Shown piece by piece: positions 35,101 through 58,026 of a DNA stretch of 64,000 nucleotides. Below the pieces are notes generated by a model. It was given only the letters and a program-made list of their open reading frames with translations. It was not told where the DNA came from and ran no database searches. Position 1 is the first letter of the stretch. Each line of letters opens with the position of its first letter. The DNA is from an uncultured Desulfobacter sp. (GTDB lineage: Bacteria; Desulfobacterota; Desulfobacteria; Desulfobacterales; Desulfobacteraceae): positions 768,001-832,000 of the forward strand of contig OY762069.1 in NCBI GenBank assembly GCA_963665095.1, written 5' to 3'. Position numbers and translations under genes: made by a program.

Positions 35101-35481
35101 ATGAGCGGTAATGCAGTCAGGCGTCATGACCCAAACGATGGCCCGGTTCAGATTCGTCACATTGATCTTGAATCAGGCGGCAGGGTCAGTGTGGTTTCAA
35201 AAAAGGACGGGGAACGTGTTCAGATCTCAGCGGGTGACGATCGGCTTTTTATGGAGATCAGGTTTACCCCGGAAGGACCGGTTGTCTCTTTAGATGGTGC
35301 CTGTCTCGAGTTGTCTGCAACCCGTGAGATATCCCTGGATGCGGAAAAGGTAAATATTCGGTCTAAAAAGAACACCGAAATTAGCAGCCACGGGACTTTA
35401 AAGATTGATATACAAGAGGATGTGGATCTTCAATCTGATCAGGAGATCCGTTTACAGGGCAAAATGATCCATTTAAATTAA
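35101..35481 (+). CDS. Small gp5-C/VgrG-needle-like beta-strand repeat protein
   Basis: C-terminal short beta-strand repeats ending IRLQGKMIHLN, like VgrG termini; directly upstream of PAAR. Confidence 0.6.
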   Translation: MSGNAVRRHDPNDGPVQIRHIDLESGGRVSVVSKKDGERVQISAGDDRLFMEIRFTPEGPVVSLDGACLELSATREISLDAEKVNIRSKKNTEISSHGTLKIDIQEDVDLQSDQEIRLQGKMIHLN

Positions 35482-35491
35482 AGGGACTGAT

Positions 35492-35875
35492 ATGCCGCCA
35501 GCTGCACGTGTGTCAGATTTAGTATTACAGGATAATCCCCATTGCCATGCCCCCATTCATCCACCGGCTCCGGTCCCGGCCACAGTACCTCATCCCGCAG
35601 TGCCGCTGGCTATTGTCAAAGGAGCCACCACGGTCTTTATCGGTGGATTACCGGCAGCCACGGCTACCAGTACAACAGCCCCGTGTACCCCGGCCGGATG
35701 TACACCTGCAGGCCCCGGTGTTGTGGCCAAGGGTTCTGCCACCGTTTTTGTGCAGAATCTGCCTGCTGCACGGGTTAATGATACCACAGCCCATGCCTCC
35801 TGTGTGGCACCGGTTCCGGGGGCGACCGGGAAGATTCTCCCTCCGGGATGTTTAACTGTGATGATCGGAGGATAA
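35492..35875 (+). CDS. PAAR domain spike-tip protein
   Basis: PAARVSD, PAATATS and PAARVND motifs; GSATVFV; C-terminal TVMIGG. Confidence 0.92.
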   Translation: MPPAARVSDLVLQDNPHCHAPIHPPAPVPATVPHPAVPLAIVKGATTVFIGGLPAATATSTTAPCTPAGCTPAGPGVVAKGSATVFVQNLPAARVNDTTAHASCVAPVPGATGKILPPGCLTVMIGG

Positions 35876-35900
35876 TGCCATCAATCCAGTCCATTTTGAC

Positions 35901-37010
35901 ATGCTTAAGCCGGTCTGCCCCCTGTGCCGGAAAGATGGACGGGGTGAAAACAGGCTTGAGATTTATCAGGTTTTAAAGCAAGATGACGGGGATATAGACC
36001 AGGGGATTCTGACCTGCACCCACCCTCAGTGCCGGTGCGAATACCCGATTATTGATGGTGTCCCGGTCATTGTGGCTGATATAAGGCACTATGTCACCCA
36101 CAGTGCCTATCCCATTATCAGACGAAACGATCTATCGGAGTCTCTGGAATCTCTTATAGGCGACTGCATGGGACCGGGGTCGGTGAATGACCTGATGCGT
36201 CAGCATTTAAGTTCCTACGGGTATGATCATTATGAAGGTATGGATTCCGGTGCCTCAGTCACTGATGACCGGGCCAAAAGAGATGGGCCGGCTGACGGTG
36301 TGCCTGGGCCGGGGGCCTGCGCAGGACTGATGCTCAGAAATCTGGAAGGGATGAACGCAGCCTCCTCGGGCCCGATAATTGACCTTGGATGTTCAGTGGG
36401 GCGGACTACTTTTGAGGTGGCACGATATTTTAAAGAGCTTACCCTTGGTATTGATTTGAATTTTAATATGATCAAAGCTGCGGCCAGTGTCTTGAAAACA
36501 GGCTTTTTTAGCTACCCTAAACGAAAAACCGGCATGGTATATGAACAAAGGTGCATCAAGACCCCGTTCAAAGCAGAGAAAAACGTTGATTTCTGGGCCT
36601 GCGATGTGTTGAATCTGCCGTTTTCCCGGAATCAATTCGGTTTCGCCGTCAGCATGAACCTGCTGGATTGTGTGTCAGAGCCGTTTTCTTATCTTCAGGA
36701 GGTGGAACGTATACTAAAGCCGGGTGGTCAGGGCCTGATGTCAACGCCCTATGACTGGAATACAAATGCCGTGCCTGTGGAAAACTGGCTGGGTGGGCAC
36801 TCACAAAGAGCTGAGTCAGGGGGGCGCAGCGAAGTGATGATCCGCTCCCTTTTTGCCGGTGGCAGTCATTCCCATGCATTAAAACAGCTTGGCCTGGTAT
36901 ATGAAAAAGAAAATCAGCCGTGGCCGGTAAGGGTTCATGAACGCAGTACCATGCAGTATCTGGTTCATGTGATGGGCATTGAGAAACACAATAAGGGGAC
37001 AGGGGAATGA
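35901..37010 (+). CDS. Class I SAM methyltransferase with N-terminal Trm112-like Zn ribbon
   Basis: CPLC..C..C-YPIIDGVP at the N-terminus; DLGCSVGR, NLLDCV, LKPGG and TPYDW..WLGG motifs. Confidence 0.85.
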   Translation: MLKPVCPLCRKDGRGENRLEIYQVLKQDDGDIDQGILTCTHPQCRCEYPIIDGVPVIVADIRHYVTHSAYPIIRRNDLSESLESLIGDCMGPGSVNDLMRQHLSSYGYDHYEGMDSGASVTDDRAKRDGPADGVPGPGACAGLMLRNLEGMNAASSGPIIDLGCSVGRTTFEVARYFKELTLGIDLNFNMIKAAASVLKTGFFSYPKRKTGMVYEQRCIKTPFKAEKNVDFWACDVLNLPFSRNQFGFAVSMNLLDCVSEPFSYLQEVERILKPGGQGLMSTPYDWNTNAVPVENWLGGHSQRAESGGRSEVMIRSLFAGGSHSHALKQLGLVYEKENQPWPVRVHERSTMQYLVHVMGIEKHNKGTGE

Positions 37011-37345
37011 CAGACAAAATAGACAAGTTGTTTTCACCGGAACGGCTTCGGGGGAAATGGTCAATGGATACAAGGGCGTCTAAAAACCCTGTTGCGTTTG
37101 ATTTACCCCGGGTGTCTGAAAAATACAGCGCCATTTTCCTGGAACTGCGGGATGTAATATTTCATAAATTTTCAGACGATATCCGCCTGCTTCTGGATAA
37201 TATGATGGAGGAACTGGAGAACAGTCTGGCTTCGCGCTTTCCTGCCACAGGTGTGCAATCACTTTCCCAGGAGGAAATTGCCGCACTTAATATTGCCATT
37301 GATCAGATTCTCACTCAAATGGAAGATTTGACGGAACATGCTTAA
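37007..37345 (+). CDS. Hypothetical small acidic helical protein
   Basis: ATGA overlap with the methyltransferase stop; 112 aa. Confidence 0.65.
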   Translation: MTDKIDKLFSPERLRGKWSMDTRASKNPVAFDLPRVSEKYSAIFLELRDVIFHKFSDDIRLLLDNMMEELENSLASRFPATGVQSLSQEEIAALNIAIDQILTQMEDLTEHA

Positions 37346-37348
37346 GTC

Positions 37349-38248
37349 ATGGATGAATTTAAAATGGCACCACAAGTAGAATCATCTGCCGGCACCCTTA
37401 GAATTCAAAAGAAAATATCAGGACGAATACATGATTTTGATTTGATCTCCTTGGTACGGGTGTTGTGCCATATCGGTTATGCCATGGAGGAGATCATATT
37501 TGAAAGTGACAACAGTCTGTGCTCCCAGGCAGGCTTGATTCAGCAGGTCCGATTTTTAAAGGACCCTACAAAACAGGTAATTATCAGCCTTAATATGGGC
37601 CTTTTAAGCGCACAATCCCCGCTGCCCAGCTATTTCCAGAAAAATATCGATAAAAGCCTGATGGATGTGACGGCATTTTACGAATTCATTGGTTACTTTG
37701 ACCATATACTGATGTTTCAGTTTTTAAAATCTGTTTATCCTGAATTGAATCTGAATCCCGCCTTTGATTTACAGTCCCTTAAAGAAACGACCCTTGGCAT
37801 GCTGGATATAAAGTGCCTGACAACTTTGGACTGGCTTTTCAGGCTGGTTTTTCCGGAGCTTGAGGTCCGTGTTGAAAAGGGGTTGGTTCTAAGGCAGGTG
37901 ACCATGGTGCCGTTGATTCTGGGTAAGGCTGTTTTAGGAGAAAACAGTGTGTTTGGGGACCAGACGAAAATAATGGTATCAGGCCGAAATGTTACGTTAT
38001 TTTCCATGGACGAATTGAGTGATTTGGGAAAGCCTTGGCCCAAAGAAATTAAAGAACGTCTTAAGTCGCATATTTTTCCAATTTTGAGGAACATGGGCGT
38101 AGATCTTCAGGTATCGTTAGTTATAGAATCCCAGAAGCAGTGGGCCCGACTCCATACTGATACGTATCTTGGGTATGATAAAATTACCGGCGGCACCGAG
38201 CAATACAAGCGGATTCGGATATTTAAGGGACATCTTTCCCCGAATTGA
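37349..38248 (+). CDS. T6SS baseplate TssG/IglJ-like protein
   Basis: LNMGLLSAQSPLPSYF..FIGYFDH resembles the TssG GL.G..GPLP..Y..F...F.H block; LGKAVLG motif; cluster context. Confidence 0.7.
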   Translation: MDEFKMAPQVESSAGTLRIQKKISGRIHDFDLISLVRVLCHIGYAMEEIIFESDNSLCSQAGLIQQVRFLKDPTKQVIISLNMGLLSAQSPLPSYFQKNIDKSLMDVTAFYEFIGYFDHILMFQFLKSVYPELNLNPAFDLQSLKETTLGMLDIKCLTTLDWLFRLVFPELEVRVEKGLVLRQVTMVPLILGKAVLGENSVFGDQTKIMVSGRNVTLFSMDELSDLGKPWPKEIKERLKSHIFPILRNMGVDLQVSLVIESQKQWARLHTDTYLGYDKITGGTEQYKRIRIFKGHLSPN

Positions 38249-38584
38249 TGGTGTGCAAGAATGCGTTTTACCTGATTCTGACCATTAGCCAACCACCGAA
38301 AATCACAAAAAAGATACCGTTTATCATCATTTTGTTGACCCAAGGACGTGTATTTAATACCTGAATTTGTACTAGGTTATTTTATAAAGTGTAAACATGA
38401 CTATTTTTATGACATTGCTATGCGGACAATACGTTGAATTAATGAAAAATTAATAATTTTCATTTTAGACATGCAATATAATGAAAAAATTATTATCAGT
38501 TTATTTTTTTTAAAGAATACGTTATGAATAACTAACCTGTATAAGGTTTATTCAATATCGCTTTTGGAGATTAATACATAAAAA

Positions 38585-39763
38585 ATGGATTGGCGTCAGT
38601 TAGATATCGAATTCCAGGTTTCTGAAGATCCGGGATTGGGAACCCTTGATCCACGGTTTGTTGAGATCGCCGGAATGATTCAGGAGAGTAATTTCTCTGC
38701 TGCGGCCCGGCAGGCCCAGGAGGTTATTGAGGAAGAAATATACGATATCAGGATTATCAGTTACTTTCTCTACGGGGTTTTCGATGAACAGGGGCCAGGC
38801 TCTCTTTACGGTATTTTAAAGGTATTATCCAATGTGCTTACCCAGAACTGGGATGCCGTCGGCCCTTTAAAAAATCGCGAAAAGCAAGTAAAAAACAGTT
38901 TAACCTGGTTTTTCAAGCAGACAAATAAAGTGCTGGAAACACAGGAGAAAAAAGAAGGCCCGGAATGGGGAAAATGGCTTAGTGAAACGGCTTCAGACGA
39001 TATACATGAAGCCATTGAAATGGGGAACGATTTCAAGGCAAATGCAGGCCGTACCCTTGAAGATCACGCCTCAGCGATTATTGATCAGGTGGCCAGGACC
39101 CTGGCATGGCTTGACAGTTTTTACCGACTGATTTACCAGGAAGAGCCTGATGCAAGTGAAGAGGAAGAGGCTGATTTTGATTCGGAGGAAGATGCCGATG
39201 ACCCTGAATCGCCGGACGCCTTCGAAGAAGATACAAGGCCTTACACCAATGAGCAGTCTGCTGCAGGGGGATCATGGCCTGGTGTTGGTCAGGCAGACAA
39301 CACAGGCGGCGGCTCATATTTGCTCCAGCAGCTTATCAGGAAGATGGCCCTGTTTGAGCGCCTTCTTGCAGAAAATAAAAATACCGGTGCGGCCCTGGTG
39401 GCTGATGACATCAATAATATTCTGGCTGATTTTGACCCCCAGGTCTATTTCCCGGAAATTTTTTCCGGTTTTGCCATGCAGTACGCATTGAATGTCGAAA
39501 AAATACTTCCCTTTCAGGGATGCCAGAATTCACCGGTGTGGCAGGCCGCAGACAACCTCTACCGGGTAGATATGGAGCGTTTTGCTGCAATGAATAATGG
39601 ATTCCACAATCAGGAACCAGACGCCTTTGCCAGGTCTGACTCATATGCACAAGAAGATGCCGGTAACCCAACTAGCTACAATCAGGATAACTATAATCAG
39701 GATCAAAACGGTTACGATGTTGAAGAGGATTATTATGGGGAAGATGAGGATGACGACTTTTAA
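38585..39763 (+). CDS. T6SS TssA/IglI-like protein with acidic linker and tail
   Basis: ImpA-N-like DPRF..I, YDIRI and NWDAVGP; Asp/Glu-rich linker; small C-terminal domain. Confidence 0.6.
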   Translation: MDWRQLDIEFQVSEDPGLGTLDPRFVEIAGMIQESNFSAAARQAQEVIEEEIYDIRIISYFLYGVFDEQGPGSLYGILKVLSNVLTQNWDAVGPLKNREKQVKNSLTWFFKQTNKVLETQEKKEGPEWGKWLSETASDDIHEAIEMGNDFKANAGRTLEDHASAIIDQVARTLAWLDSFYRLIYQEEPDASEEEEADFDSEEDADDPESPDAFEEDTRPYTNEQSAAGGSWPGVGQADNTGGGSYLLQQLIRKMALFERLLAENKNTGAALVADDINNILADFDPQVYFPEIFSGFAMQYALNVEKILPFQGCQNSPVWQAADNLYRVDMERFAAMNNGFHNQEPDAFARSDSYAQEDAGNPTSYNQDNYNQDQNGYDVEEDYYGEDEDDDF

Positions 39764-39904: not shown

Positions 39905-40414
39905 ATGAATTGTAAAGGCTGTGGTAAAGAAATTTGTGGCGATGATTTCCGGAAAGTCGCAGACTGGTATTTTTGCCAGGACTGCTTTCAGGGGCTTATG
40001 CAGCCTTCTGATTCAGACACTGAATCCGGTGCCTCTCAGGATGCCAGCGGGGCAGGGGGGCATGATGCTTTGTCCGATACTGAAAACAGCCAGATTTCGA
40101 GACAAAATGTGAAAAAAAAGAGTTGCGAAGTCTGCCAGGCTGAATTAGAGGAAGGTAGCGGGAAAAAGTTAGGCATCTGGCTGCTTTGCGATACCTGCTT
40201 CAACGATATGAATGCCTCAGTAAGACCAGATACCCCTGAGCCGGAGAGCGCTGAGGCGGATCTTGAGGAAGAGACAGATGAAACAGACAGCCGTCCCCCC
40301 GTTGATATGAATAAAACCATTCCATGCCATTCCTGCGGTCGCGTAATACTGGCGGTTGGAGCCAAAGAAGAAGATGGGCAGTATTTTTGCCCGGATTGCT
40401 ACTACAAAAAATAA
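39905..40414 (+). CDS. Hypothetical protein with three CxxC-CxxC zinc ribbons
   Basis: CKGC..FCQDC, CEVC..LCDTC and CHSC..FCPDC separated by acidic linkers. Confidence 0.75.
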   Translation: MNCKGCGKEICGDDFRKVADWYFCQDCFQGLMQPSDSDTESGASQDASGAGGHDALSDTENSQISRQNVKKKSCEVCQAELEEGSGKKLGIWLLCDTCFNDMNASVRPDTPEPESAEADLEEETDETDSRPPVDMNKTIPCHSCGRVILAVGAKEEDGQYFCPDCYYKK

Positions 40415-40514: not shown

Positions 40515-42164
40515 ATGTTTTCTGAAACCCTGGAAATAAGCCTCTCGCTGGAAATTAGTGGCAAGTTATGCGAGATCCCCGGAGGTAACGTTCAGTTGTT
40601 TGAACTTGATCTTTATCCTTATGGATTCAGGGGGCGGGTTGGATTTGGTGTTCTTTTGGATGCAACTGAGGTGGATGAGCTGTTTGAACCATTTATTACC
40701 CATGATCTGATAACCGTTCAATTTCAGGTCAACCGGACAGACGACCTGCTTGACGATTCACCCAAGCCAGTTTCCGTTAAAGGTCTTGTAACGGAAAAGT
40801 CCATGAGAGAGACGGAATATAAAGAGGTGAAAAAGGAAAAGGTCCTGTGCCGATATTATGAAGTCTGGTTCCAGGATGGCCCCAGCATGTTGTGGCGCCA
40901 GCACTATCCTGTGGCGCTTTATACAGAGAAGACCATAGCCGATGTAGTTAAGGAACAGGTTGCTGAAAATATTTTATTTGAGATTGAAAAAGGTATCCTG
41001 GAAGATATGCCGGATATGGTTTTTCTCGGGCTGGAAAAACGGATTGAGGGACCCTGTTTTTATGATTTTTTGATGTGGTTGTCATGGTTCAGAAGTGTTG
41101 TTCCGGTTTATGATTACGAAGCTCAAAAACTCAAACTGATCAAGACAAAAAAAGACGCAGACTTAACAGGGGAGGTGGACAATTTCCTTTACCCCAATGA
41201 GGTGGATGATATTTTGATTCAGTTTCCGGAGACAGTCCGGCATGATACGCGGCTTCTTAATGCATATTTCGATCCTGAGATGGCCCAGACCATAGATAAG
41301 TTCCAGGATCAGAAACTGGATTACAGCCAGGCTGCTGAGGGGATTACCCAGGATATTGTTTTAAGGACACCTCGTGAAGAGGACTTAGATAAACGAAAAG
41401 AGCTGGAAACAAATATTTTCAACCTGTTTGAAGAAAAATTGCTTTTTGAGATGGATCAGTTTCCTTCCAGAACCTGCCTGATTGGTTACATGCTGAAACT
41501 GGATGAAAATCACTGGGCCAAGGATCGGTTTATTTTTGGTAAAAAATACAGGGTGTATGAAATCCATATGTCTGGGAAAGCTGAAGATGAGAACCTGTCG
41601 GGAAACTACAACAACGAATATGCCAAATACAATATGGAAATGAGTATCCGCCTGGAACCGGAAACATGCCCTCAGATCCACTTTCCAACCTTTAAATCCC
41701 CCAATTATCCAGTTTTTGTGGAAGGAAAAATCGTCAGTGAAGTGGGGGAAGAGACAGATAAAACCTATCAGTTTTACAATAACGACACCACATCCCAGGA
41801 TGAATACACCGTTTATGTGCCATTGTGGGATTTGAATATCAAGGCACCGTTTGTTCCAGGTATTTTTACCGGCCATTTTTATTTTCCCGCATTCAGAGAT
41901 GCCCGGGTTTTACTGGCGCTCTATTTTGACCATGCCGAAATATTGCGCTTTCTAGACTGGGGCCAGGGATCCAGGCTTCCCATGGATACCCAGGGCAACC
42001 ATATTCTGTTCGGCAAAAATGCTGACAGCCAGACCTCAATGCGGCATGTGTATGATAACGGCAAGCCCGAACTGACCATTGAACGGACCAGTGACAAGGA
42101 CACGGAGCTGATTCAGATCAAGGAAGAAACCATTATCATTCAAACCAGGGATAAGGAAGAATAA
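40515..42164 (+). CDS. VgrG-hub / PdpA-like protein (gp27-like plus OB-fold, no needle)
   Basis: C-terminal VEGKIVS..GHFYFPAFRDARVLLAL resembles the VgrG OB-fold; protein ends without a long beta-helix; position upstream of TssM-like gene. Confidence 0.6.
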   Translation: MFSETLEISLSLEISGKLCEIPGGNVQLFELDLYPYGFRGRVGFGVLLDATEVDELFEPFITHDLITVQFQVNRTDDLLDDSPKPVSVKGLVTEKSMRETEYKEVKKEKVLCRYYEVWFQDGPSMLWRQHYPVALYTEKTIADVVKEQVAENILFEIEKGILEDMPDMVFLGLEKRIEGPCFYDFLMWLSWFRSVVPVYDYEAQKLKLIKTKKDADLTGEVDNFLYPNEVDDILIQFPETVRHDTRLLNAYFDPEMAQTIDKFQDQKLDYSQAAEGITQDIVLRTPREEDLDKRKELETNIFNLFEEKLLFEMDQFPSRTCLIGYMLKLDENHWAKDRFIFGKKYRVYEIHMSGKAEDENLSGNYNNEYAKYNMEMSIRLEPETCPQIHFPTFKSPNYPVFVEGKIVSEVGEETDKTYQFYNNDTTSQDEYTVYVPLWDLNIKAPFVPGIFTGHFYFPAFRDARVLLALYFDHAEILRFLDWGQGSRLPMDTQGNHILFGKNADSQTSMRHVYDNGKPELTIERTSDKDTELIQIKEETIIIQTRDKEE

Positions 42165-42259: not shown

Positions 42260-44860
42260 GTGATAATTGAAAATTTTTCAATGAAAGCCCAGGGTGCCAT
42301 TGAAAGTGCCTGTCGTCTGGCCGTTAAAAAAGAACATCAGAATGTCACCCCCTGGCACATGCTGGCCGGGATACTTGAATTTGAGCAGGGCAAGGCTGTG
42401 GCGCCCCTGTTCGAGAGTGCCGGTGTGGATGCGTCGTCCCTTGAAAACCGGATCAATTCCCATCTGTTAACCCTTGCCAAGGCCTCTTCCGACAGCCAGG
42501 AAACGCCCATGAACCGTGAGCTGGAAAAAATATTTATCCGGGCGGAAGAGGAGGTGGATGCCTCAGGGGATAAATATATCGGCATGAGCCATATCCTTCT
42601 GGCCATGCTGGAGAACAAAGACATTGCAGAGGCTTTTCAGGAAGCCGGTGCCGGCAAGGAGGCCTTTTCAAAGGCATTAAAGGAAGGTGGAAAGGGGTTT
42701 GGCAAAGGCGGCAAGCTGTCCCAGGATTTTGAATATCTCAACACCTATACCACGGATCTGACGGCCCGGGCCAGGGAAGGCGGGTTTGACCCCATTATCG
42801 GCCGGGACAATGACATCCAGCTCATTGTCCAGGTATTAAGCCGCAGAATTAAAAGCAACCCGGTGGTCATTGGCGAGCCTGGTGTGGGGAAAACAGCCAT
42901 TGTGGAGGGCCTGGCCCAGCGCATTGCAAAAAAAGAGGTGCCCAAGGATCTGGAAAATGTCACCATCCTGGCCCTGGATATGGGCCAGCTTCTGGCTGGG
43001 GCCAAATTCAGGGGCGAGTTTGAAGAGCGCTTCAAACGGGTGATCCAGGAGATCACCGATGCCGGGGATATCATTTTATATATTGACGAGCTTCACATGA
43101 TTGTCGGCGCCGGCGGTGGTTCAGAAGGGGCCATGGATGCGGCCAACCTGCTGAAACCCGCACTGTCCAGAGGCGAGATCCGGTGCATGGGCTCCACCAC
43201 CCTGGAAGAGTATCGCAAGTATATTGAAAAGGATACGGCCCTGATGCGACGGTTTCAGACGGTCATGGTGGCAGAACCCACGGTGGATGAAACCCTGACC
43301 ATTCTTCGGGGCATCAAGGAAAAATATGAAATGCACCACGGTGTCCATATCATGGATTCAGCGCTCACCGCGGCAGCCAAGCTTTCCCACCGCTATATAA
43401 CAGACCGGTTCCTGCCGGATAAAGCCATTGACCTCATCGACCAGACCGCAGCCACAGTCCGTATAGAGCTTGCCTCCAAGCCCAAAGAAATTGAGGCCCT
43501 GGACCGTAAAATTGTCCAGCACAAAATAGAGCTTCGTGCCCTGGAAAATGAGACCGATGAAAAAATGGTCGCAAAAATGGAAGAGACCCGTGCCATCCTG
43601 TCGGAACTTGAAGCGGAAAGCGGGAAACTGACTGAAAAATGGGAAAAAGAGAAAAATGCCATTACTGCCGTTCAGGAAGCTACCAGGGAACTCGAGGCTG
43701 CCAGAAAAGAGTTGGAAGTCAAGATTGCCGAAGAGGATTTCGCCCGGGTGGCCGCCCTGCAGTATAAGGTGATCCCCAAACACGAAAAGATCCTTGAAGA
43801 GTATGCAGATATTGATGTGTCCGATTCAAAATTTGCCGCCAGGGGCATCACGGACCAGGATGTGGCCGGCACCGTGGCTGAACTCACAGGTATCCCTGTC
43901 TCCAAAATGATGGGTGAGGAAAAAGACCGGCTGATTCATCTGGAGGAACATCTGCAGAAACGGGTCAAGGGCCAGGATCACATCACCGAAGTCATTGCCA
44001 AGGCCGTGCGGCGGGCAAGAGCCGGGGTCCAGGATGCCCAGCGCCCCATGGCCTCCTTTCTCATGCTCGGCCCCACCGGCGTGGGCAAAACCGAGCTTGC
44101 CAAGACACTGGCTGAGTTCATGTTCAATGACGAAGCCGCCATGATCCGTTTTGACATGAGCGAATTTATGGAAAAACACTCTGTGGCACGGCTGGTGGGA
44201 GCCCCTCCCGGATATGTGGGCTATGATGAAGGCGGCCTTCTGACCAACAAAGTTCGGCGCAAACCCTATTCCGTTATTTTGTTTGACGAGGTGGAAAAAG
44301 CCCATCCTGATGTGTTTAACCTCTTCCTTCAGCTTTTTGACGACGGAAGGCTCTCAGACAGCCAGGGTCAGGTGATTAATTTCACCAATACCATTGTGAT
44401 TATGACATCCAACCTGGGTGCAGATCATATTGCCCCGGTTGAAACCGAGGAAGAGGAAAAGGCCATGAATCAGGCGGTGATGGAGGCTGTCCGTTCCCAT
44501 TTCCGGCCAGAATTTCTGAACCGGCTGGATGATATTCTCATGTTCAAACAGCTCACCATGGAGGTGATGAAGCCCATCGTCAATATCCAGCTTGCAAGGC
44601 TTGAAAAACTTCTGGCCGATAAACAGATCAGTCTTCATGTGGCAGAGGAGGCCAAGGAGCTTCTGGCAAAGGAAGGCTATAATCCGTTATATGGTGCAAG
44701 GCCTTTGAAACGCGTGATTCAGAGCCGTCTGCAGGATCTTCTGGCAGAAAAAATTATTCAGGAGGAGATCAAAGAAGACCAGACTGTGTACGTATCAACC
44801 CAGGATGACGATCTTGTGATTAACACGGATGAACCCGCGGAATCGGAAGAAATTCAGTAA
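42260..44860 (+). CDS. clpB: ClpB-type AAA+ ATPase inside the T6SS cluster (TssH role)
   Basis: Clp-N domain, GEPGVGKT and GPTGVGKT, coiled-coil M domain ending ALQYKVIP, no IGF loop; stop overlaps the next start (TAATG). Confidence 0.85.
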
Positions 44861-48496: not shown

Positions 48497-48958
48497 ATGA
48501 AAGTATCCACAACAGTTTACCGCTTACGATGTGCAAAGATGTTCCGGATATCAGGAGCAGTCATGGTGCTGACGTTCATGCTTTTGATAGGCATAGGGTG
48601 CGGGGCAAAGCAGCCGGTGTTGAAATTCCAGGTGAAGTCAGATGAGACAGTTAACAACGGCCAGCCTGTTTATATCGTCATCCGGACGGTTACCCCCAGT
48701 GATTTTGTCTCTCAGGATTATCAGAGTGTGGCCTCCATGGTCATGCAGAACCCTCCGGATAAAACCGTTGTATTCACGCAGCTGATCCTGCCGGACCGCA
48801 AAATTAAATTTAAAGTGAATAAGCCGGATAACCAGTCCCTGGCTGTGTACTGCATGTTTACCGAGCCTGACCCTGCGCAATGGAAGGTGTTTTTACAAAA
48901 ACCCCTTGAAAAGAAATATAAATTTATCCTGGAAGAGAACAATCTATTATTAAAATAG
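48497..48958 (+). CDS. TssJ/IglE-like lipoprotein
   Basis: Lipobox IGIGC; VNNGQPVYIVIR and LAVYCMFTEP..WK; follows the TssM-like gene. Confidence 0.65.
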   Translation: MKVSTTVYRLRCAKMFRISGAVMVLTFMLLIGIGCGAKQPVLKFQVKSDETVNNGQPVYIVIRTVTPSDFVSQDYQSVASMVMQNPPDKTVVFTQLILPDRKIKFKVNKPDNQSLAVYCMFTEPDPAQWKVFLQKPLEKKYKFILEENNLLLK

Positions 48959-50738: not shown

Positions 50739-51266
50739 ATGGCGATTCAGGATGAAATACCAAAATCCAGGTTAACCTTAAGGTACAAAACAGAGGTGAA
50801 CGGCCAGCCCGAAGACTTGACCCTGCCCATGCGGTTTCTGGTTACAGGTGATTTCTCCCAGGGCTCTTCCAAAGACCGCAAGGTGGATCTCGATGAGAGA
50901 AGTACCCGTAACATGAATGGGAAAAACACCGATGCCATAATGAAAGATATGGGAATTCGCCTTAATTACGCGGTTTCCAATAAAATCAATCCGGACCAGG
51001 AGGAGGATCTCCAGGTGGATCTGCCCTTTACCGGCATGAGATCTTTTTCTCCGGATGAGGTGGCCAAGAATGTGCCCAAAATCAAGGGACTGCTCAAGCT
51101 CAAGGAGCTTTTGGAAGAGGTGGTGTCCAATGTGGACAACCGCAAAGGGTATCGCAAACTGCTTGGTGAACTGATGGCGGATGAAGAGGCCTTGAAAAAG
51201 ATGATGGAAGAGCTCAAAGAGTTTGAGAGCTTTAAACTGCCTTCTGCAGGCGCAAAAACTGAATAA
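50739..51266 (+). CDS. tssB: Contractile sheath small subunit TssB (IglA-like)
   Basis: IPKSRLTLRY, LPMRFLVTGDFS and SFSPDEVAKNVP motifs; GGAGG RBS. Confidence 0.92.
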   Translation: MAIQDEIPKSRLTLRYKTEVNGQPEDLTLPMRFLVTGDFSQGSSKDRKVDLDERSTRNMNGKNTDAIMKDMGIRLNYAVSNKINPDQEEDLQVDLPFTGMRSFSPDEVAKNVPKIKGLLKLKELLEEVVSNVDNRKGYRKLLGELMADEEALKKMMEELKEFESFKLPSAGAKTE

Positions 51267-52911: not shown

Positions 52912-53484
52912 ATGGCAGATTTGAGTTTTAGTTGCAGTATTGACCAGGGATTTAACTTTCATCCCGATGCCCAGGATTACGTAGGACATCTGACCACCCT
53001 TAAAATCGGAGGGGTAGAAATTAAGGCCAACCTTGAGGTGACCAATCCCGCAGAGAGCACCGGGGATAATGTGCCTGTGGTCGGCGTGCTCAGCGACATT
53101 TTCTGGGGCGGTGGATTTGCAGAGGGTATTAATTTCAGCGCCCAGGTAAATGTGAACAATAAAACCGAACTTGCAAAACTTCAGCATTCTGATTTGAGCA
53201 ACACCGAAGTGACGTTCTCATTTAACGTTTATGCCTATGATCAGGCCGCCAAAAAGTTTTACCTGGCATTCCATTCCAACGAGACGGACCTTGAAGGGCT
53301 GGTGGAAAAACACGGTTCGGAGCTTAATTTTAATATAGAGATGGATCCATCGCCTGAAGTTGCCAACCCGCTTAACTTTACGCTGACGCTTGGGGTTATG
53401 CCCAAGGAACTTGCCCAGGAGGTTCATGTGGCGGTTTCTGATACGGATAAGTTTGTCAAACAATGGGGTGTTACCGTATCATAA
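52912..53484 (+). CDS. Putative tube protein, non-canonical Hcp (IglC-like)
   Basis: 190-aa beta-rich protein with strong AGGAG RBS between tssC and tssK; no classical Hcp motif; no other tube candidate in the cluster. Confidence 0.65.
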   Translation: MADLSFSCSIDQGFNFHPDAQDYVGHLTTLKIGGVEIKANLEVTNPAESTGDNVPVVGVLSDIFWGGGFAEGINFSAQVNVNNKTELAKLQHSDLSNTEVTFSFNVYAYDQAAKKFYLAFHSNETDLEGLVEKHGSELNFNIEMDPSPEVANPLNFTLTLGVMPKELAQEVHVAVSDTDKFVKQWGVTVS

Positions 53485-53524: not shown

Positions 53525-54766
53525 ATGACAGATAATCTTGCTCGGGTAAAATGGGAAATGGGGCAAACCCTTCTGCCTGTTCACTTCAGGGCCCAGGAAG
53601 ACGCCCTGCTTGCGGAATCCGTATTGCGGTTCCGGATGCAGGGCCTTCCGGCCTATGGTGTGGCTGAGCTGGTATGGAGTCCCACCCTGATTAAGGACGG
53701 GGTGGTTTCCGTCCAGTCTCTGACGGCTGTTTTTCCCTCGGGGTTGATGGCTCAGGTGCCGGGAAATGCCAAAGTCTCCCCTTTCAACCTCAATGTGCCG
53801 GGTGATGTAACCGTTGGGCTCTACTGCCATCTGATGGTGGACAAAGGCCAGGAAGAGAATGTGGATGAAACCTGGGACACCGGGGAGGAAAAGGATGTTA
53901 CCAGACACCATTACACCTTGGCTTTAACCTCGGAGCAAAGCACGTCAGGGGCACTTGAGACGCTGAAACTGGCCCAGTTCAAAAAAATGCCGGACAATAC
54001 CTGGCAGCTTTCCAAAGAGTATATCCCCCCGCTGCTTCAGGTGGGACTTTCTCCGTTTTTGCAGGATGCTTTGGAGGCGCTCAGCCAGGCCCTGGAACTG
54101 TTTCATTACAATCTGGCCCTGGATGCATCCGGATTCCTGTCCGGAGAAAGCCTTCAAAATGTTAAACAATGTATGAAAAGCAGCCTGAAAATGCAGCGGA
54201 CCATTGCCAATATCAATGGGCAGATTCACTGTCATCCCTATTTTCTTTATGAAATTCTGGCTGAGTTTTATACCGAGGTGAGCTATTACCGGAAAGTGGT
54301 GCCGGAAAATGTCACAGAACCCTACCGGCATGAACAGCTGGCAGCCTGTTTTGACCGGTTGCTTACGCCGTTGATGAAACAAATGCAGATGATGGAGGAA
54401 AAATCTCCCTATCTTGCGTTTGAATTCAAAGACGGGGTGTTCCGTCTGGATCTGCCTTCGGAAATCCGGGAAGCCAGGGATGTCTATTTTCTGGCCCAGA
54501 AAGGTCATGTTACAGACAAGGTGGACGTGTCCGGCATCAAGCTTGGCAGTTTTGCCCGCATCGGGTTAATCCACAAAATGGCCCTGCCGGGGGTGCCGTT
54601 GAAAAAAACGGAAAAACCGCCTTTTCAGCACTCATTTGGTTCCGAGGTGGATTTTTTCAGGGTTGTGGAGGGTGAGGAGTGGGACCAGGCACTGAAGGCG
54701 CTCTCCCTGGCCTTTTACCACCAGGATATGTATACCGGGATTGAGTTCTTCCTGTACTGGAGATAA
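53525..54766 (+). CDS. tssK: Baseplate TssK (IglD-like)
   Basis: RVKWEMGQTLLPVHF, YGV..L, YIPPLL, HPY and ALPGVPL motifs. Confidence 0.85.
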   Translation: MTDNLARVKWEMGQTLLPVHFRAQEDALLAESVLRFRMQGLPAYGVAELVWSPTLIKDGVVSVQSLTAVFPSGLMAQVPGNAKVSPFNLNVPGDVTVGLYCHLMVDKGQEENVDETWDTGEEKDVTRHHYTLALTSEQSTSGALETLKLAQFKKMPDNTWQLSKEYIPPLLQVGLSPFLQDALEALSQALELFHYNLALDASGFLSGESLQNVKQCMKSSLKMQRTIANINGQIHCHPYFLYEILAEFYTEVSYYRKVVPENVTEPYRHEQLAACFDRLLTPLMKQMQMMEEKSPYLAFEFKDGVFRLDLPSEIREARDVYFLAQKGHVTDKVDVSGIKLGSFARIGLIHKMALPGVPLKKTEKPPFQHSFGSEVDFFRVVEGEEWDQALKALSLAFYHQDMYTGIEFFLYWR

Positions 54767-54777
54767 GTCGTTCATCC

Positions 54778-55155
54778 ATGGCATTGTTTAAAAAATTTAT
54801 GATCAAAGAGGACCCTACCTGGGACGGGAGCAGAGATATTGTGGATAATTTGAACAATATCCTGAACACCAAAAAAGGGTACGGATCCATCCTTGACGAT
54901 TATGGCATCAGGGATTTGAACGAGTTCAGGGACAAGGAGGGTATCACTGATGTCATCGTGGAGGAAGTGATCCGGTGCGTTGCCAAATATGAGCCCCGGG
55001 TTAAAATTATCCAGGTGGACAAAGAGAAAGGCAGCGGACTCTTTCAGCTTTCATTCAATATTCAGTGCATGATCAGGGAGACCCGTCAGAGCATGAATAT
55101 GGTATTTGATACCGTGGGCAGCCAATTTACGATAAAAAAAGGGAAAAACAGGTGA
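54778..55155 (+). CDS. tssE: gp25-like baseplate TssE
   Basis: NLNNILNT..DYGIRD and KYEPRV motifs. Confidence 0.85.
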   Translation: MALFKKFMIKEDPTWDGSRDIVDNLNNILNTKKGYGSILDDYGIRDLNEFRDKEGITDVIVEEVIRCVAKYEPRVKIIQVDKEKGSGLFQLSFNIQCMIRETRQSMNMVFDTVGSQFTIKKGKNR

Positions 55156-55158
55156 TAC

Positions 55159-55734
55159 ATGGGATCTCTGGTCTGCCGCATTGAACTGCATAAACAGGAC
55201 GGGATTACCGTTACCGTTGAAAACGGGGATGATGGCATTACCCAGACCATCGTCATGGACGGGCAGACCATCACCACTACCTGCAAAGGGTCTGACGACA
55301 CCAGTACCATTACCCAGGCCCCGGACAGCATTACCATCAAATGCAAGGACTTCAAGGTTGATGCAGACACCATCACCTGCGAGTCTTCTGCGGAAACCAC
55401 GCATAAAAGCGGCAAGGACTATACCGTGGAAAGTTCTGCGACAATGGATTTGTCCGCCTCAAAGACCTTGGATGCCACTGCTTCCTCAGCCATGACACTG
55501 ACAGGCAAAAGTGTGGATGTAAAGGCATCGTCAACCGGGGACGTGGCCATTTCAGGTAAAAATGTGGCATCAACCGCCAGCATGAAAGCGTCCCTTTCCG
55601 GCAAGCAGTTTGAGGCAAGCGGCTCAATTTCAGCCAAAGTATCAGGTGGCAAGGTGGATGTTGACGGGAAAATGACCACAGTGAACGGATCCACTGCCAC
55701 TGTAATAAAGGGCACTGCTATTAAAATCGGATAA
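55159..55734 (+). CDS. Short stand-alone VgrG needle (gp5-C beta-helix), similar in architecture to Francisella VgrG
   Basis: 191 aa, Ser/Thr/Lys-rich 7-8-residue beta-strand repeats ending VIKGTAIKIG. Confidence 0.7.
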   Translation: MGSLVCRIELHKQDGITVTVENGDDGITQTIVMDGQTITTTCKGSDDTSTITQAPDSITIKCKDFKVDADTITCESSAETTHKSGKDYTVESSATMDLSASKTLDATASSAMTLTGKSVDVKASSTGDVAISGKNVASTASMKASLSGKQFEASGSISAKVSGGKVDVDGKMTTVNGSTATVIKGTAIKIG

Positions 55735-55752
55735 AGGGGCACAATACCCAGC

Positions 55753-57363
55753 ATGGAAATGGATGAACAGTTATACCGGGCATTTCTTGAGCAGATGCAT
55801 GAACTTGATAATTTTCGTATGGAATACGCGTCCCGGCATCCGTCTGCCCCTCTGGACCGGGATGACCCCGATGTCAAACGCCTGGTGGAGGCCATGGCCT
55901 TTTTTTCCGCCCGGACCCACATGGCTGGTCTGGATAATATTGTAGCGTCCCGGCTCAGAATTTTTCAGCAGTTTTTCCCTTTTCTGCTCTCACCCTTGCC
56001 TGCCATGGGAATGGTTCAGGCACAGCCGACAGGCCAGTTTTCAGAAACTGCGCTGCTACCCAGAGAGACCCGGTTCCTGGTCTCTTCGCCCAAAGGTGAC
56101 GGGTGGGTCTGCCGTACCATGAAAGATCTTAGAATCCTTCCTGTTTTTTTAACGGAGACAAAACTTCTGATGCGCCCCAATAAGGGGTACCGCATGATAA
56201 TGGCCTTTGAATCCGGATATGAAAGGGCAGACACCATAGGGAAGATAGCGGTTTACCTGGATCATTTAAACAGTTACCAGGCCTCTTTAATGTTGTTTGA
56301 TGCCTTGAAAACCAACTTGGTCCGCGCTTCTGTGGTATTTGATAAAAAAACGGATGAGCAGATTATCGGCATGCCCTGTGAGGTATCGTTCGGCACCTTG
56401 CCGGATGAAGAGGCCCTTGATCAAAGAAAGATGCATCCGCTTCAGCAGGCAAGAACTTTTTTTCATTTTCCCTGGCAGGAACTGGTCATGACCATTGATG
56501 TGCCCCAGACAAACCTGGCCTGGAAAAAATTTTATGTTTGTCTGGATCTGTCTGATAAATGGCCGCGTAAACTGCCTGTTAATAAAGATGTATTCCGGCT
56601 GCACACAGTGCCTGTGGAAAATATAAGCCGGGAATCCACAACACCGATTGTATATGAAGGCACAAAAGAGCGGTTTCTGATCCGCCATCCTGATCCGACA
56701 CTGGGGTTTGAGCTTCAGACTATTCTTGGGGTATATAAAATCAGGGATGGGGGTATGGTGCCGGTTAAGCCGGGTATTTTGTCCGGGGGTGAGGGCACAT
56801 ATGAGATTTCACAGAAAACAGATTCGGTCAAAGGCAGCCGTTACTGGCTGTGCATGCACGACCCTTCTGCGTTTGTTGAACCGGTTACAGTGGTCCTTGA
56901 CGGATTGTGGCACCAGCCTGACTTTTCTCGGAATTTTTCACAGATGCTTAAAACACGGCCATACAGCCGGACCATTGCAGGCGTGAATTGGGATTTGTGC
57001 GAAAATATGGTCAGATCCCTGCAAAACCGGTTTCAGGAAAATATGGATGAATATATTCACCTGCTTACCATTAAAAATAAATCTGCCTTGAATTTTGATG
57101 ATATCTGTGCCCTTATTCAAATGCTGGGCACCGTGTGGCAGGGAGATTATAAACCGGTAAAAGACCTGTTTTACGCAGTGAGGGTGGAGCAGGCTCCGAG
57201 AGCCGGCGGTTTGCTTAAACAGATTTACCATCTTCGGTTCAGACATTGTGAACCCGTCACCCTTCCGCTGGTCAGCACGTTTACCCAAAAGCTTGGACGG
57301 ATTCTGGATGTGTGGATTTCAGAAGTGGTTGTTGAAACCCGTATGGAGATGGATAGGGCATAA
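55753..57363 (+). CDS. tssF: Baseplate TssF (IglH-like)
   Basis: DDPDVKRLVEAMAFFSAR, PLPAMGMVQ, FFHFP and LHTVPVEN motifs. Confidence 0.85.
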   Translation: MEMDEQLYRAFLEQMHELDNFRMEYASRHPSAPLDRDDPDVKRLVEAMAFFSARTHMAGLDNIVASRLRIFQQFFPFLLSPLPAMGMVQAQPTGQFSETALLPRETRFLVSSPKGDGWVCRTMKDLRILPVFLTETKLLMRPNKGYRMIMAFESGYERADTIGKIAVYLDHLNSYQASLMLFDALKTNLVRASVVFDKKTDEQIIGMPCEVSFGTLPDEEALDQRKMHPLQQARTFFHFPWQELVMTIDVPQTNLAWKKFYVCLDLSDKWPRKLPVNKDVFRLHTVPVENISRESTTPIVYEGTKERFLIRHPDPTLGFELQTILGVYKIRDGGMVPVKPGILSGGEGTYEISQKTDSVKGSRYWLCMHDPSAFVEPVTVVLDGLWHQPDFSRNFSQMLKTRPYSRTIAGVNWDLCENMVRSLQNRFQENMDEYIHLLTIKNKSALNFDDICALIQMLGTVWQGDYKPVKDLFYAVRVEQAPRAGGLLKQIYHLRFRHCEPVTLPLVSTFTQKLGRILDVWISEVVVETRMEMDRA

Positions 57364-57393
57364 ACAGTGCCCCTCAGGAAATAAGGAAAAAAT

Positions 57394-58026
57394 ATGGAAC
57401 CCGAACTTTGGAAAGCCATTCAAGTCCTGTTTGCCACCATGGAGAGAGCCTTTGGCTTTAGAGAGGCAGATTGGGATTCTGACAATCCGTCTGATATCCA
57501 GATAGACCCGGAAAACCTTATCAAAGCCCGCTCCGAGATCCGGAAGGGGTTTGATGATCTCAGGATTACTTTATTGGGGAGCCTGTCCGAGCAGGAGACC
57601 TATCAGGTTCTTTTCCCTTTGGTTGTCTATGTGGATGAACTGGTTCAGGCCAGGTATTTTGGAAACAGACAGGTCTCATGGCCCCTGCTTCAAATGGAGC
57701 TTTATGAGGTGGATGACGGTGGCCGCCTGTTCTATGACACCCTGGATTCCATCCTGAAAAAACCCCAGACCTCCCAGTTTGTGTATGAAGTTCATTATTT
57801 TTGTCTGAAACACGGCTTTGAGGGAAAATATGTGGCAGACCCTGTCCGGATCAACAAATACCTGGAGCAGCTTAAGGAAAAGATTGCCATCTCTGACATG
57901 GACAGGATAGAAATTATGGCTGAAGAGACCGGGGAGATGAAATATTTTGCTTCTCCCGTATGGCTCTATGCCGGAGTGCTGATCTGTTTAATCCCGGTAT
58001 ACTGTCTGTTTAAGTTTCTGGCATGA
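57394..58026 (+). CDS. tssL: DotU/TssL
   Basis: VYVDELV, WPLLQ, GGRLFY and CLKHGFEGKY motifs; C-terminal TM. Confidence 0.88.
   Translation: MEPELWKAIQVLFATMERAFGFREADWDSDNPSDIQIDPENLIKARSEIRKGFDDLRITLLGSLSEQETYQVLFPLVVYVDELVQARYFGNRQVSWPLLQMELYEVDDGGRLFYDTLDSILKKPQTSQFVYEVHYFCLKHGFEGKYVADPVRINKYLEQLKEKIAISDMDRIEIMAEETGEMKYFASPVWLYAGVLICLIPVYCLFKFLA

What the first reader, a model, noticed from the sequence alone, without database searches (positions are those of the whole stretch)
35101..58026. Francisella-pathogenicity-island-like (T6SSii-like) secretion system in an apparent sulfate reducer
Seen: one + strand cluster with sheath, baseplate (TssE/F/G/K), membrane complex (TssM/J/L), PAAR and a Clp ATPase, but no classical Hcp and no full-length VgrG. 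Known: the FPI has iglA-iglB-iglC-iglD (sheath, sheath, tube, TssK) and pdpA-pdpB-iglE-vgrG-iglF-iglG-iglH-dotU-iglI-iglJ. Here the order is hub, clpB, tssM, lipoprotein, unknown, tssB, tssC, tube, tssK, tssE, short vgrG, tssF, dotU, which keeps both FPI blocks colinear. TssB begins IPKSRLTLRY..V.G, like IglA. Unlike the FPI it also has a clear gp25/TssE, a canonical PAAR and its own ClpB. Inference: an intermediate T6SS lineage between T6SSi and T6SSii. Related loci may already be annotated in other deltaproteobacteria or myxobacteria; I cannot check this.
Basis: partly seen in the sequence, partly recalled or inferred. Interest (0 to 1): 0.92.

Follow-up and report, generated by a model that had tools for sequence, protein, structure and literature searches.

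The report
Francisella-type secretion machine outside Francisella
A sulfate-reducing bacterium carries a complete injection nanomachine built like the one Francisella uses to infect cells, a design that reviews still call Francisella-specific, and the same gene set is common in harmless soil myxobacteria and scattered through other environmental bacteria.

Summary
The cluster is real and intact. Its parts are of the Francisella (T6SSii) kind. The tube folds like IglC (Z 14.7, best Hcp 8.8). VgrG is split into a PdpA-like hub (Z 24.0) and a short spike. The lipoprotein is IglE-like, and an IglI-family protein is present. The sheath groups with IglB across a long 100/100 branch from T6SSi; placing it with T6SSi is rejected (AU p=0.009). 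So it is a sister or basal branch of T6SSii rather than a halfway form; the root is unresolved. It keeps features the FPI lacks: TssE, a canonical PAAR and its own ClpB paralogue. It adds a conserved dead acyl-CoA-ligase-like protein and a second mini-spike predicted to carry the PAAR. The IglI marker passes its cut-off in 54 of 301 Myxococcota, 2 of 401 own-phylum and 5 of 400 Gammaproteobacteria genomes; 12 of 12 myxobacterial loci checked hold the same machine. IglI-family proteins begin with a TssA-like domain, pointing to Francisella's unidentified TssA. Ten paper searches found no description, only a 2012 remark on DotU relatives; family models already catch two parts. Cargo, target and expression are not shown.

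The parts
35101..35481 (+). Second short gp5-like spike protein (126 aa, DUF3540-like, ends G-x-x-I-H-L-N); predicted trimer that carries the PAAR
   Evidence: Weak DUF3540 and Francisella-VgrG hits, under cut-off; conserved C-terminus in 16 aligned rows; trimer-PAAR model 0.80 vs best control 0.00, contacts at residues 120-126 (135)
35492..35875 (+). Canonical PAAR tip protein, 127 aa, no effector extension
   Evidence: PF05488 43.9 bits, cut-off 27
35901..37010 (+). Class I SAM methyltransferase with N-terminal Cys-rich (Trm112-like) domain; travels with this PAAR; candidate cargo or tip-modifying enzyme
   Evidence: Methyltransf_11; present in 62 of 80 metagenome loci of this PAAR, also beside canonical T6SSi genes; role inferred
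37007..37345 (+). Conserved 112-aa protein of no known family, usually between tssL and tssG
   Evidence: No Pfam or NCBIfam hit; found in 29 of 58 related loci
37349..38248 (+). TssG (functional counterpart of IglJ, inferred)
   Evidence: PF06996 23.6 bits, just under cut-off; family profile hits a canonical-locus protein at 1.6e-7 (123) and the protein in the iglJ-like position of L137 at 1e-8 (94); not FPI IglJ itself
38585..39763 (+). IglI-family protein with an N-terminal TssA (ImpA_N-like) domain; likely the tube/sheath assembly cap
   Evidence: NF041244 280.5 bits; ImpA_N sub-cut-off hits in 10 of 24 aligned members; profile hits PDB 6RJU at E 8e-5 (that 6RJU is E. coli TssA is recalled)
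39905..40414 (+). Cys-rich zinc-ribbon protein with acidic linkers
   Evidence: Weak LIM-type hit; in 20 of 58 related loci
40515..42164 (+). PdpA-like hub (gp27 + OB fold + short beta-helix), without the PdpA N-terminal lid
   Evidence: Model pLDDT 81; Foldseek top hits 6U9E/G/F at E 1e-25 (65); VIA Z 24.0, rmsd 8.5, 489 aligned, chain range 179-817 (66); hhalign to PdpA set P 97.6 (95)
42260..44860 (+). Dedicated ClpB-like AAA+ unfoldase (not ClpV)
   Evidence: Scores; own clade 100/100, apart from the ClpV clade (119); a separate ClpB-like gene lies at G000:5807214 (98)
44860..48471 (+). TssM/PdpB inner-membrane protein with N-terminal TM helix and a P-loop-like motif
   Evidence: PF14331; family profile hits PdpB at 1e-13 (94); TM 24-42 (144)
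48497..48958 (+). IglE-like outer-membrane lipoprotein (TssJ role)
   Evidence: IglE_N 78.5 bits vs SciN 22.4; NF041245 60.1, under its cut-off of 75 (6); hydrophobic leader 18-36 (144) ending in a Cys lipobox
48992..50698 (+). ANL-superfamily (acyl-CoA-ligase-like) pseudoenzyme; conserved part of the system
   Evidence: AMP-binding hits; catalytic motifs absent in 14 of 14 aligned members, kept in most of 5 genome ANL controls; P-loop motif in 0 of 45 rows; in 39 of 58 loci and next to DUF4280 in 12 of 12 myxobacterial loci
50739..51266 (+). TssB/IglA sheath small subunit
   Evidence: PF05591, TIGR03358
51293..52789 (+). TssC/IglB sheath large subunit
   Evidence: Best PDB hit IglB 3J9O 432 bits vs 379 for the next; trees
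52912..53484 (+). IglC-like tube protein
   Evidence: Model pLDDT 87.6; VIA top 2QWU Z 14.7, rmsd 3.1, 177 aligned, next Hcp Z 8.8 (28); Foldseek E 3e-6, the only hit under 1e-3 (29)
53525..54766 (+). TssK/IglD
   Evidence: TIGR03353 329.6 bits; groups with IglD against T6SSi, 100/99 (134)
54778..55155 (+). TssE/gp25 sheath initiator
   Evidence: PF04965 and TIGR03357 over cut-off
55159..55734 (+). Short Francisella-type VgrG spike (gp5 C-terminal beta-helix only)
   Evidence: 25 of 29 aligned members hit NF041249, best E 2.7e-9; the window protein itself does not; profile hits 6U9E VgrG E 2e-4 over positions 13-165 (41); hhalign P 95.6 (95)
55753..57363 (+). TssF baseplate wedge (IglH counterpart, inferred)
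   Evidence: PF05947 96.3 bits; IglH model only 14.9 bits
57394..58026 (+). TssL/DotU, short form with C-terminal TM helix
   Evidence: PF09850 66.5 bits; TM 191-209 (144); family profile hits FPI DotU at 7e-22 (94)
33362..34868 (.). Partner-switching genes: RsbW-like anti-sigma kinase and two STAS proteins; probable regulators
   Evidence: homologues beside the Syntrophus cluster L097 (123); link to the T6SS inferred
58050..60080 (+). Cache-HAMP-SpoIIE (PP2C) sensor phosphatase directly after dotU; probable regulator
   Evidence: homologues beside related clusters L006 and L097 (123); link inferred

Best explanation
A complete, envelope-anchored contractile injection system of the Francisella (T6SSii) lineage in the wide sense: a slowly evolving sister or basal branch found in Myxococcota, Desulfobacterota, some Gammaproteobacteria and Planctomycetota. 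Mechanism, by analogy with T6SS biology (established knowledge) on parts identified here: the IglE-like lipoprotein, TssM/PdpB and DotU form the membrane complex. TssE-F-G-K wedges assemble round a trimer of the PdpA-like hub, which is extended by a separate short VgrG. The IglI/TssA-type protein caps growth of an IglC-type tube inside the TssB/C sheath. Contraction drives tube and spike into a neighbouring cell, and the cluster's own ClpB paralogue strips the contracted sheath. The tip is modular: here a second mini-spike (35101) trimer carries a canonical PAAR; myxobacterial and Methylobacter relatives use an IglG-like DUF4280 tip. The dead ANL protein is most likely a tip-associated adaptor or cargo, and the methyltransferase is the best cargo candidate in this genome. 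A flanking STAS/RsbW/SpoIIE switch probably controls expression. Shown: identity of the parts, folds of tube and hub models, phylogenetic side, spread. Modelled: 35101-PAAR binding. Inferred: assembly, firing, ClpB role, regulation, cargo. Target, my estimate: other bacteria about 55%, protists about 35%, other about 10%.
For: Tube fold nearest IglC by a wide margin. Hub nearest PdpA. Family profiles hit 9 of the 14 structural-block genes of an FPI locus (PdpA 4e-11, PdpB 1e-13, IglE 2e-5, VgrG 9e-7, DotU 7e-22, IglI 2e-24, IglD 3e-11, IglA, IglB; six gene names confirmed by NCBIfam in 96). TssC tree: family plus known T6SSii against T6SSi 100/100 (82, 142); window with T6SSi rejected, p 0.009; TssK 100/99 and TssL 93/90 agree. 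In a reciprocal IglB search, named hits of this family (Methylococcales, Desulfobacterales, Microbulbifer) appear right after and among the Francisellaceae, Piscirickettsia and Dongshaea hits, with no named T6SSi in the best 120. All genes intact and single-copy. 12 of 12 myxobacterial IglI loci hold hub, TssE, TssG, TssK, DUF4280 and the pseudo-ANL. A lipase gene lies within the Methylobacter cluster and a phospholipase D gene beside the Aliikangiella one, typical T6SS cargo classes (recalled). 35101 trimer with PAAR: score 0.80, best control 0.00; the mark was reached by 116 of 157 solved and 2 of 215 mismatched pairs; runs agree in 100% of contacts; partner pLDDT at least 83. VgrG-PAAR complexes are solved, so the pass may reflect likeness.
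Against: No sequence similarity of the tube to IglC (hhalign P 0.2-0.8); the match rests on a predicted model. IglF, IglG, IglH, IglJ and IglC of the FPI were not hit by family profiles. The hub also resembles ordinary VgrG hubs (Z 20.7 and below), and the PdpA match has rmsd 8.5. Monophyly of the family is unresolved (61/78) and the root is open. No toxin-immunity pair was recognised in the window cluster. TssF and TssE score better on T6SSi models than on FPI ones. Only one T6SSiii outgroup and 17 T6SSi sequences were sampled.
Confidence: 0.82

Rival explanations
1. A true intermediate or separate subtype: the family is an outgroup to both T6SSi and T6SSii (or the root lies on the T6SSii side), and IglC, PdpA and IglE-type parts are ancestral states kept by two lineages.
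For: With the T6SSiii outgroup, a tree holding the family with T6SSi is not rejected (p-AU 0.445). It has TssE, canonical PAAR and a cluster-encoded Clp, as T6SSi does.
Against: The best tree puts the root among T6SSi with family plus T6SSii on one side (82/90). The internal branch to T6SSi is about five times that to T6SSii. PMC13098142 reports T6SSii nested within the T6SSi lineage (passage).
Confidence: 0.1
2. A divergent T6SSi clade whose likeness to the FPI is convergent or an artefact of long branches.
For: Generic T6SSi models pass for TssB, TssC, TssK and TssE.
Against: The family has short TssC branches; AU p 0.009; separate fold matches to IglC and PdpA; no Hcp, full VgrG or ClpV.
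Confidence: 0.03
3. The machine is intact but not mainly a weapon: it exports or displays proteins for cell contact, adhesion or partner exchange in syntrophic or symbiotic life.
For: No clear toxin or immunity gene in the window cluster. Carriers include syntrophs (Syntrophus, Smithella, Syntrophobacter). Many tube homologues carry signal-peptide-like leaders and surface domains. PMC10553843 suggests a partnership role for T6SS in some sulfate reducers, with no subtype given (passage).
Against: Sharp PAAR tip and contractile sheath with a recycling ATPase; lipase and phospholipase D genes at related clusters; most frequent in predatory Myxococcota (predatory habit recalled).
Confidence: 0.15

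Closest known systems
Francisella pathogenicity island T6SS (T6SSii; IglA-J, PdpA/B, VgrG, DotU)
   Same: IglC-type tube, split VgrG (PdpA hub plus short spike), IglE-type lipoprotein, IglI, short DotU, iglA-B-C-D block, sheath clade, no Hcp, no ClpV
   Different: Has TssE, canonical PAAR plus a second mini-spike in place of IglG, its own ClpB paralogue (the FPI uses general ClpB, PMC5924787 table), lidless 549-aa hub, TssF/TssG closer to canonical, a pseudo-ANL protein; IglF not detected; environmental hosts
FPI-like loci of Piscirickettsia-type and second Francisella islands (L132, L137, L138, L140)
   Same: Lidless hub of 561-626 aa, short VgrG, DUF4280-type tip in some, shuffled gene order; same side of the tree
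   Different: These form their own clade with the FPI (99/95, 100/99 in 142); no TssE, pseudo-ANL or family-type Clp was hit in these stretches
Canonical T6SSi (Vibrio, Pseudomonas, Myxococcus type)
   Same: TssB, C, E, F, G, K, L, M, PAAR and a cluster-encoded AAA+ ATPase; the PAAR-methyltransferase pair also occurs beside T6SSi genes
   Different: No Hcp, no fused VgrG, no ClpV, lipoprotein of IglE type; long separating branch; Pyxidicoccus carries both kinds separately
Burkholderia T6SS-5 TagC (DUF3540) with TagD (PAAR-like)
   Same: A DUF3540-like small protein paired with a PAAR-like tip gene; TagC is required for sheath assembly, mechanism unknown (PMC13584744 table)
   Different: The DUF3540 hit here is weak (E 0.0013); TagD is DUF4150; that system is T6SSi

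Membership tests
T6SSii (FPI type) | Sheath in the IglA/IglB lineage, outside T6SSi | tested here: met
   TssC trees 100/100; AU p 0.009 (133). It lies next to, not inside, the clade of known T6SSii. TssB tree not built.
T6SSii (FPI type) | IglC-type tube instead of Hcp | tested here: met
   Z 14.7 vs 8.8; Foldseek; no Hcp in the genome. By fold of a model only.
T6SSii (FPI type) | VgrG split into PdpA hub and short VgrG | tested here: met
T6SSii (FPI type) | IglE-type lipoprotein | tested here: met
   Pfam IglE_N over cut-off; NCBIfam IglE under cut-off, 60.1 of 75 (6)
T6SSii (FPI type) | IglI | tested here: met
   NF041244 280.5 bits, cut-off 100
T6SSii (FPI type) | IglG/DUF4280 tip instead of canonical PAAR | tested here: not met
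   Window has canonical PAAR; tblastn with two DUF4280 relatives found nothing in the genome (the family search 102 had no ringing control). Met in relatives: 12 of 12 myxobacterial loci.
T6SSii (FPI type) | No recognisable TssE | tested here: not met
   TssE over cut-off; found in 43 of 58 loci
T6SSii (FPI type) | No ClpV; sheath recycled by ClpB | tested here: inconclusive
   Not ClpV, but the ClpB-like gene is cluster-encoded and separate from the housekeeping one; recycling itself not testable
T6SSii (FPI type) | IglF | tested here: inconclusive
   No similarity of the pseudo-ANL to IglF, yet similar size and same position before the DUF4280 gene; the same profile test also misses tube vs IglC
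T6SSii (FPI type) | IglH and IglJ baseplate proteins | tested here: inconclusive
   TssF vs IglH P 1.1, TssG vs IglJ P 3.6; TssG profile hits the L137 counterpart at 1e-8 (94)
T6SSii (FPI type) | PdpA N-terminal lid | tested here: not met
   Alignment starts at PdpA residue 179; also short in L132, L137, L140 hubs
T6SSii (FPI type) | PdpC/PdpD/PdpE effectors | not tested
   Not searched
T6SSii (FPI type) | Phagosome escape in eukaryotic cells | not testable with these tools
   Needs experiments
T6SSi | Hcp tube | tested here: not met
   control rang
T6SSi | Full-length VgrG | tested here: not met
   control rang
T6SSi | ClpV/TssH | tested here: not met
T6SSi | TssE, TssF, TssG, TssK baseplate | tested here: met
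   (TssG just under cut-off)
T6SSi | TssA | tested here: inconclusive
   ImpA_N 25 bits vs cut-off 26.9; 10 of 24 members hit; only the N-terminal domain matches

The most novel reading that the evidence does not exclude
T6SSii is not a Francisella speciality but one derived twig of an old, multi-phylum T6SS lineage whose main home is myxobacteria and anaerobic Desulfobacterota. The FPI arose from it by losing TssE and the dedicated ClpB. The slowly evolving relatives decode the orphan FPI genes: IglI is the missing TssA, and IglF may be an eroded version of the ANL pseudoenzyme that sits before the IglG-type tip gene. The lineage uses exchangeable mini-spike and tip modules, and a marine branch may work without its own membrane complex.
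Probability: 0.5. Interest if true: 0.88.

Novelty: new variant of a known kind. Interest (0 to 1): 0.74.

Why it matters
Two 2026 reviews still place T6SSii in Francisella (PMC13584744; PMC13577199), and the first says TssA is absent there; a 2018 review lists TssA, TssE, TssF and TssG counterparts as unidentified (PMC5924787). If this reading holds, the subtype spans at least four phyla and its marker is in about one in six Myxococcota genomes sampled (54 of 301). Harmless, culturable carriers (Pyxidicoccus, Methylobacter, Syntrophus, Desulfobotulus, Pseudoalteromonas rubra) would let the assembly of an IglC/PdpA-type machine be studied outside a dangerous pathogen. It makes 'IglI is TssA' directly testable. 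It also explains why such clusters look incomplete to annotation: tube and hub have no Pfam or NCBIfam hit.

Tried and rejected
Tube in viral contigs: no relative. Sequence or profile search of tube and hub against PDB sequences: nothing; only folds gave the match. Tube vs IglC by hhalign: no signal. Vibrio proteolyticus T6SS3 as a known equivalent (a recalled lead): the passages read show no link. Pseudo-ANL as active ligase: rejected, motifs lost. Pseudo-ANL as IglF: no support, kept only as an open lead. Cluster Clp as ClpV: rejected. Colinearity as proof of FPI kinship: rejected. Rooting with one T6SSiii sheath: unresolved. Sigma-54-type site (consensus recalled) near the cluster: 2 matches in the window, fewer than chance, neither in the cluster. 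The second stretch of the Francisella plasmid record held no T6SS genes. A metagenome search with the 35101 alignment could not run. DUF4280 and IglE_N family searches had no ringing control. Earlier scan findings: none on this system. One genome was not scored, so 5 of 400 is a floor. Trees used subsets: 43 of 102 TssC rows, 26 in 133, 23 plus 10 new in 142.

Full report
Observation. G+C is like the rest of the window, 0.42-0.51. Family scans name TssB, TssC, TssK, TssE, TssF, DotU, TssM, PAAR and a Clp ATPase; TssG is just under its cut-off. Two hits are Francisella-type models: IglE_N for 48497 (78.5 bits, against 22.4 for the TssJ model) and the IglI family for 38585 (280.5 bits). The genome has dsrA, one copy of each T6SS part, and no Hcp or full-length VgrG where the control genome rang.

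The three unnamed core genes. The 190-aa protein after tssC was folded on 14 sequences (pLDDT 87.6). Against 48,161 chains its best match is IglC (2QWU, Z 14.7, rmsd 3.1, 177 residues aligned from residue 1); Hcp proteins follow at Z 8.8 or less and align only from about residue 22. Foldseek gives IglC as the only hit under E 1e-3. There is no detectable sequence likeness. The 549-aa protein (pLDDT 81) matches PdpA first in both searches (E 1e-25; Z 24.0, rmsd 8.5, 489 aligned), including the C-terminal beta-helix stub; ordinary VgrG and phage hubs follow at Z 20.7 and below. PdpA residues 1-178 have no counterpart. The 191-aa protein is a lone gp5-like spike: 25 of 29 aligned members hit the Francisella VgrG model and hhalign gives P 95.6.

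Phylogeny. In a 43-row TssC tree (LG+C20, 487 columns) the 12 T6SSi rows fall on one side of a 100/100 branch about 1.04 long. The 16 family rows and 15 known T6SSii-type rows fall on the other; the latter form a group of their own (99/95) on a 0.18 branch, and the family's own monophyly is unsupported (61/78). With ten further myxobacterial rows the known T6SSii group sits among family branches (86/82). Holding the window with T6SSi is rejected (p-AU 0.009). With a single T6SSiii outgroup the best tree roots among T6SSi, but family plus T6SSi is not rejected (p-AU 0.445). TssK (100/99) and TssL (93/90) give the same split, with long-branch warnings. The cluster Clp forms its own clade (100/100) apart from ClpV (100/100) and from housekeeping ClpB (13 rows).

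Spread. The tube alignment found 58 loci in GTDB genomes: Desulfobacterota, Methylococcales, marine Gammaproteobacteria, Pyxidicoccus and a planctomycete; these are not independent and reach only 10 kb each way. tssB-tssC-tube-tssK stand in a row in 45 of 58; hub 40, short VgrG 42, TssE 43, IglI 33, pseudo-ANL 39. The tube profile has 831 clusters at 50% identity with E up to 0.001, not all from T6SS loci. The IglI model passes its cut-off in 54 of 301 Myxococcota genomes, 2 of 401 of the window's phylum, counting the window's genome, and 5 of 400 Gammaproteobacteria (a floor). The tube is in 4 of 24 other genomes of the window's genus. I fetched 12 loci from 10 of the 54 myxobacterial genomes, chosen among strong hits on long contigs: all 12 hold IglI, TssG, TssE, TssK, hub, DUF4280 and the pseudo-ANL; 11 the tube. 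Pyxidicoccus has this system and a canonical T6SSi. The patchy spread suggests transfer and loss (inference).

IglI as TssA. The window protein hits ImpA_N just under cut-off and TssA models weakly; 10 of 24 aligned members hit ImpA_N, none of the four Francisella- or Piscirickettsia-type rows among them; the family profile hits 6RJU over positions 22-112 at E 8e-5. The IglI model also gives many sub-cut-off hits over its first 200 positions in 500-800-aa proteins, one inside the canonical Pyxidicoccus locus; these are probably ordinary TssA (inference). The family thus bridges IglI and TssA. This is homology, not function.

Accessory genes. The 568-aa protein has an ANL-like sequence but lacks the P-loop, the A5 Glu, the A7 Asp and the A10 Lys in 14 of 14 aligned members, while four of five control ANL enzymes of the genome keep the P-loop (motif names recalled); 0 of 45 rows carry the P-loop motif. 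In myxobacteria and Methylobacter it lies next to the DUF4280 gene, as iglF lies before iglG, and it has IglF's size; profile tests found no likeness. 35101 ends in a conserved G-x-x-I-H-L-N; its trimer was predicted to bind the PAAR through residues 120-126 (0.80, best control 0.00; 116 of 157 solved and 2 of 215 mismatched pairs reach the mark; contacts agree 100%; partner pLDDT at least 83). Like complexes are solved, so this shows likeness. Whether it stacks on 55159 or replaces it on the hub is open. Of 80 metagenome loci with this PAAR, 62 hold the methyltransferase and 25 the 35101 gene; several lie beside canonical T6SSi genes, so the pair is a portable tip module. STAS, RsbW-like and SpoIIE genes flank the cluster here and in L097, a SpoIIE also in L006.

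Mechanism. See Best explanation. Parts and lineage are shown; assembly and firing follow from T6SS knowledge; cargo and target are inferred. No toxin-immunity pair was recognised in the window.

What is in print. Ten searches of an open-access library found no description of this system; subscription journals are mostly missing. Passages read: PMC13584744 and PMC13577199 place T6SSii in Francisella; PMC13098142 counts 148 chromosomal T6SSii clusters and names Francisella and Dongshaea (its one held supplement file had none of six search terms); PMC5924787 lists missing counterparts. PMC3326028 noted in 2012 that the closest DotU relatives are in Stigmatella, Desulfonatronospira and Haliangium, echoed by PMC4230796: a hint at this lineage, one gene only. 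PMC11550330, PMC10553843 and bioRxiv 10.64898/2026.06.16.732483 mention T6SS in Desulfobacterota or Myxococcota without a subtype. PMC5349215 was read whole; PMC8651086, PMC5626337 and PMC9545535 in passages; a term search of PMC5014421 gave no passage. Figures such as S1 of PMC3326028 and S14 of PMC11550330 were not seen and may bear on priority. The IglI model scores this family higher (280-306 bits) than FPI IglI (200), so its curators probably included such proteins (inference): the parts are partly on record, the system is not described in what I could search.

Verdict. It works like a T6SSii and shares its ancestry, but it fails three FPI-defining tests (TssE present, canonical PAAR, no PdpA lid), so I file it as a new variant beside T6SSii, not as an FPI member. 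Interest 0.74.

Noticed in passing
P0011, P0016, P0017, P0018, P0022, P0023, P0026, P0027, P0076, P0096, P0106, P0121, P0126, P0162: Many IglC-like tube homologues carry signal-peptide-like or lipoprotein leaders, several with C-terminal surface-protein-like domains (domain kinds judged by eye); P0015 and P0046 hold three tube domains. The tube fold seems reused as an exported domain.
   Followed up: no
L021, L022, L024, L025, L028, L040; L090-L091, L098-L099: A marine gammaproteobacterial branch (Pseudoalteromonas rubra, Aliikangiella, Kangiella, Shewanella) has a 630-663-aa TssC and no full TssM, IglE or Clp near the cluster. The window's TssM found no convincing match in 5 genomes (89); IcmF hits in G403 lie on the contigs of its canonical T6SSi, in G402 only a fragment at a contig end, none in G807 (92). 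Possibly a form without its own membrane complex; draft genomes, not shown.
   Followed up: partly
L014:3-578, L017:1318-1893; G1127, G1134, G1137: Tube genes away from any cluster (Desulfobotulus, Marinomonas), and 3-7 tube matches per genome in three members of the window's genus, like orphan hcp islands.
   Followed up: no
L151-L230: A PAAR plus methyltransferase gene pair is shared between this system and canonical T6SSi loci (62 of 80 loci); no function found in the papers searched.
   Followed up: partly
L086, L088 (G401:C133): Pyxidicoccus has a third, very divergent TssC-like ORF of 565 aa.
   Followed up: no
L057:116-9035: A planctomycete locus has two tssC-tube pairs with a 35101-like gene between them.
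   Followed up: no
L093:7662-9647: A second, 661-aa hub-like gene on the opposite strand just beyond the Pyxidicoccus cluster.
   Followed up: no
window 27568-33046: Minus-strand operon upstream: SpoIIE fragment, alanine-racemase-like protein, sensor-MFS fusion (838 aa) and a 523-aa protein without Pfam hit. The 93-aa SpoIIE piece at 32765 looks like a remnant.
   Followed up: no
NZ_CP010448.1 (L064): A record filed as a plasmid holds iglA-C and chromosomal-type genes; probably a chromosomal piece.
   Followed up: no
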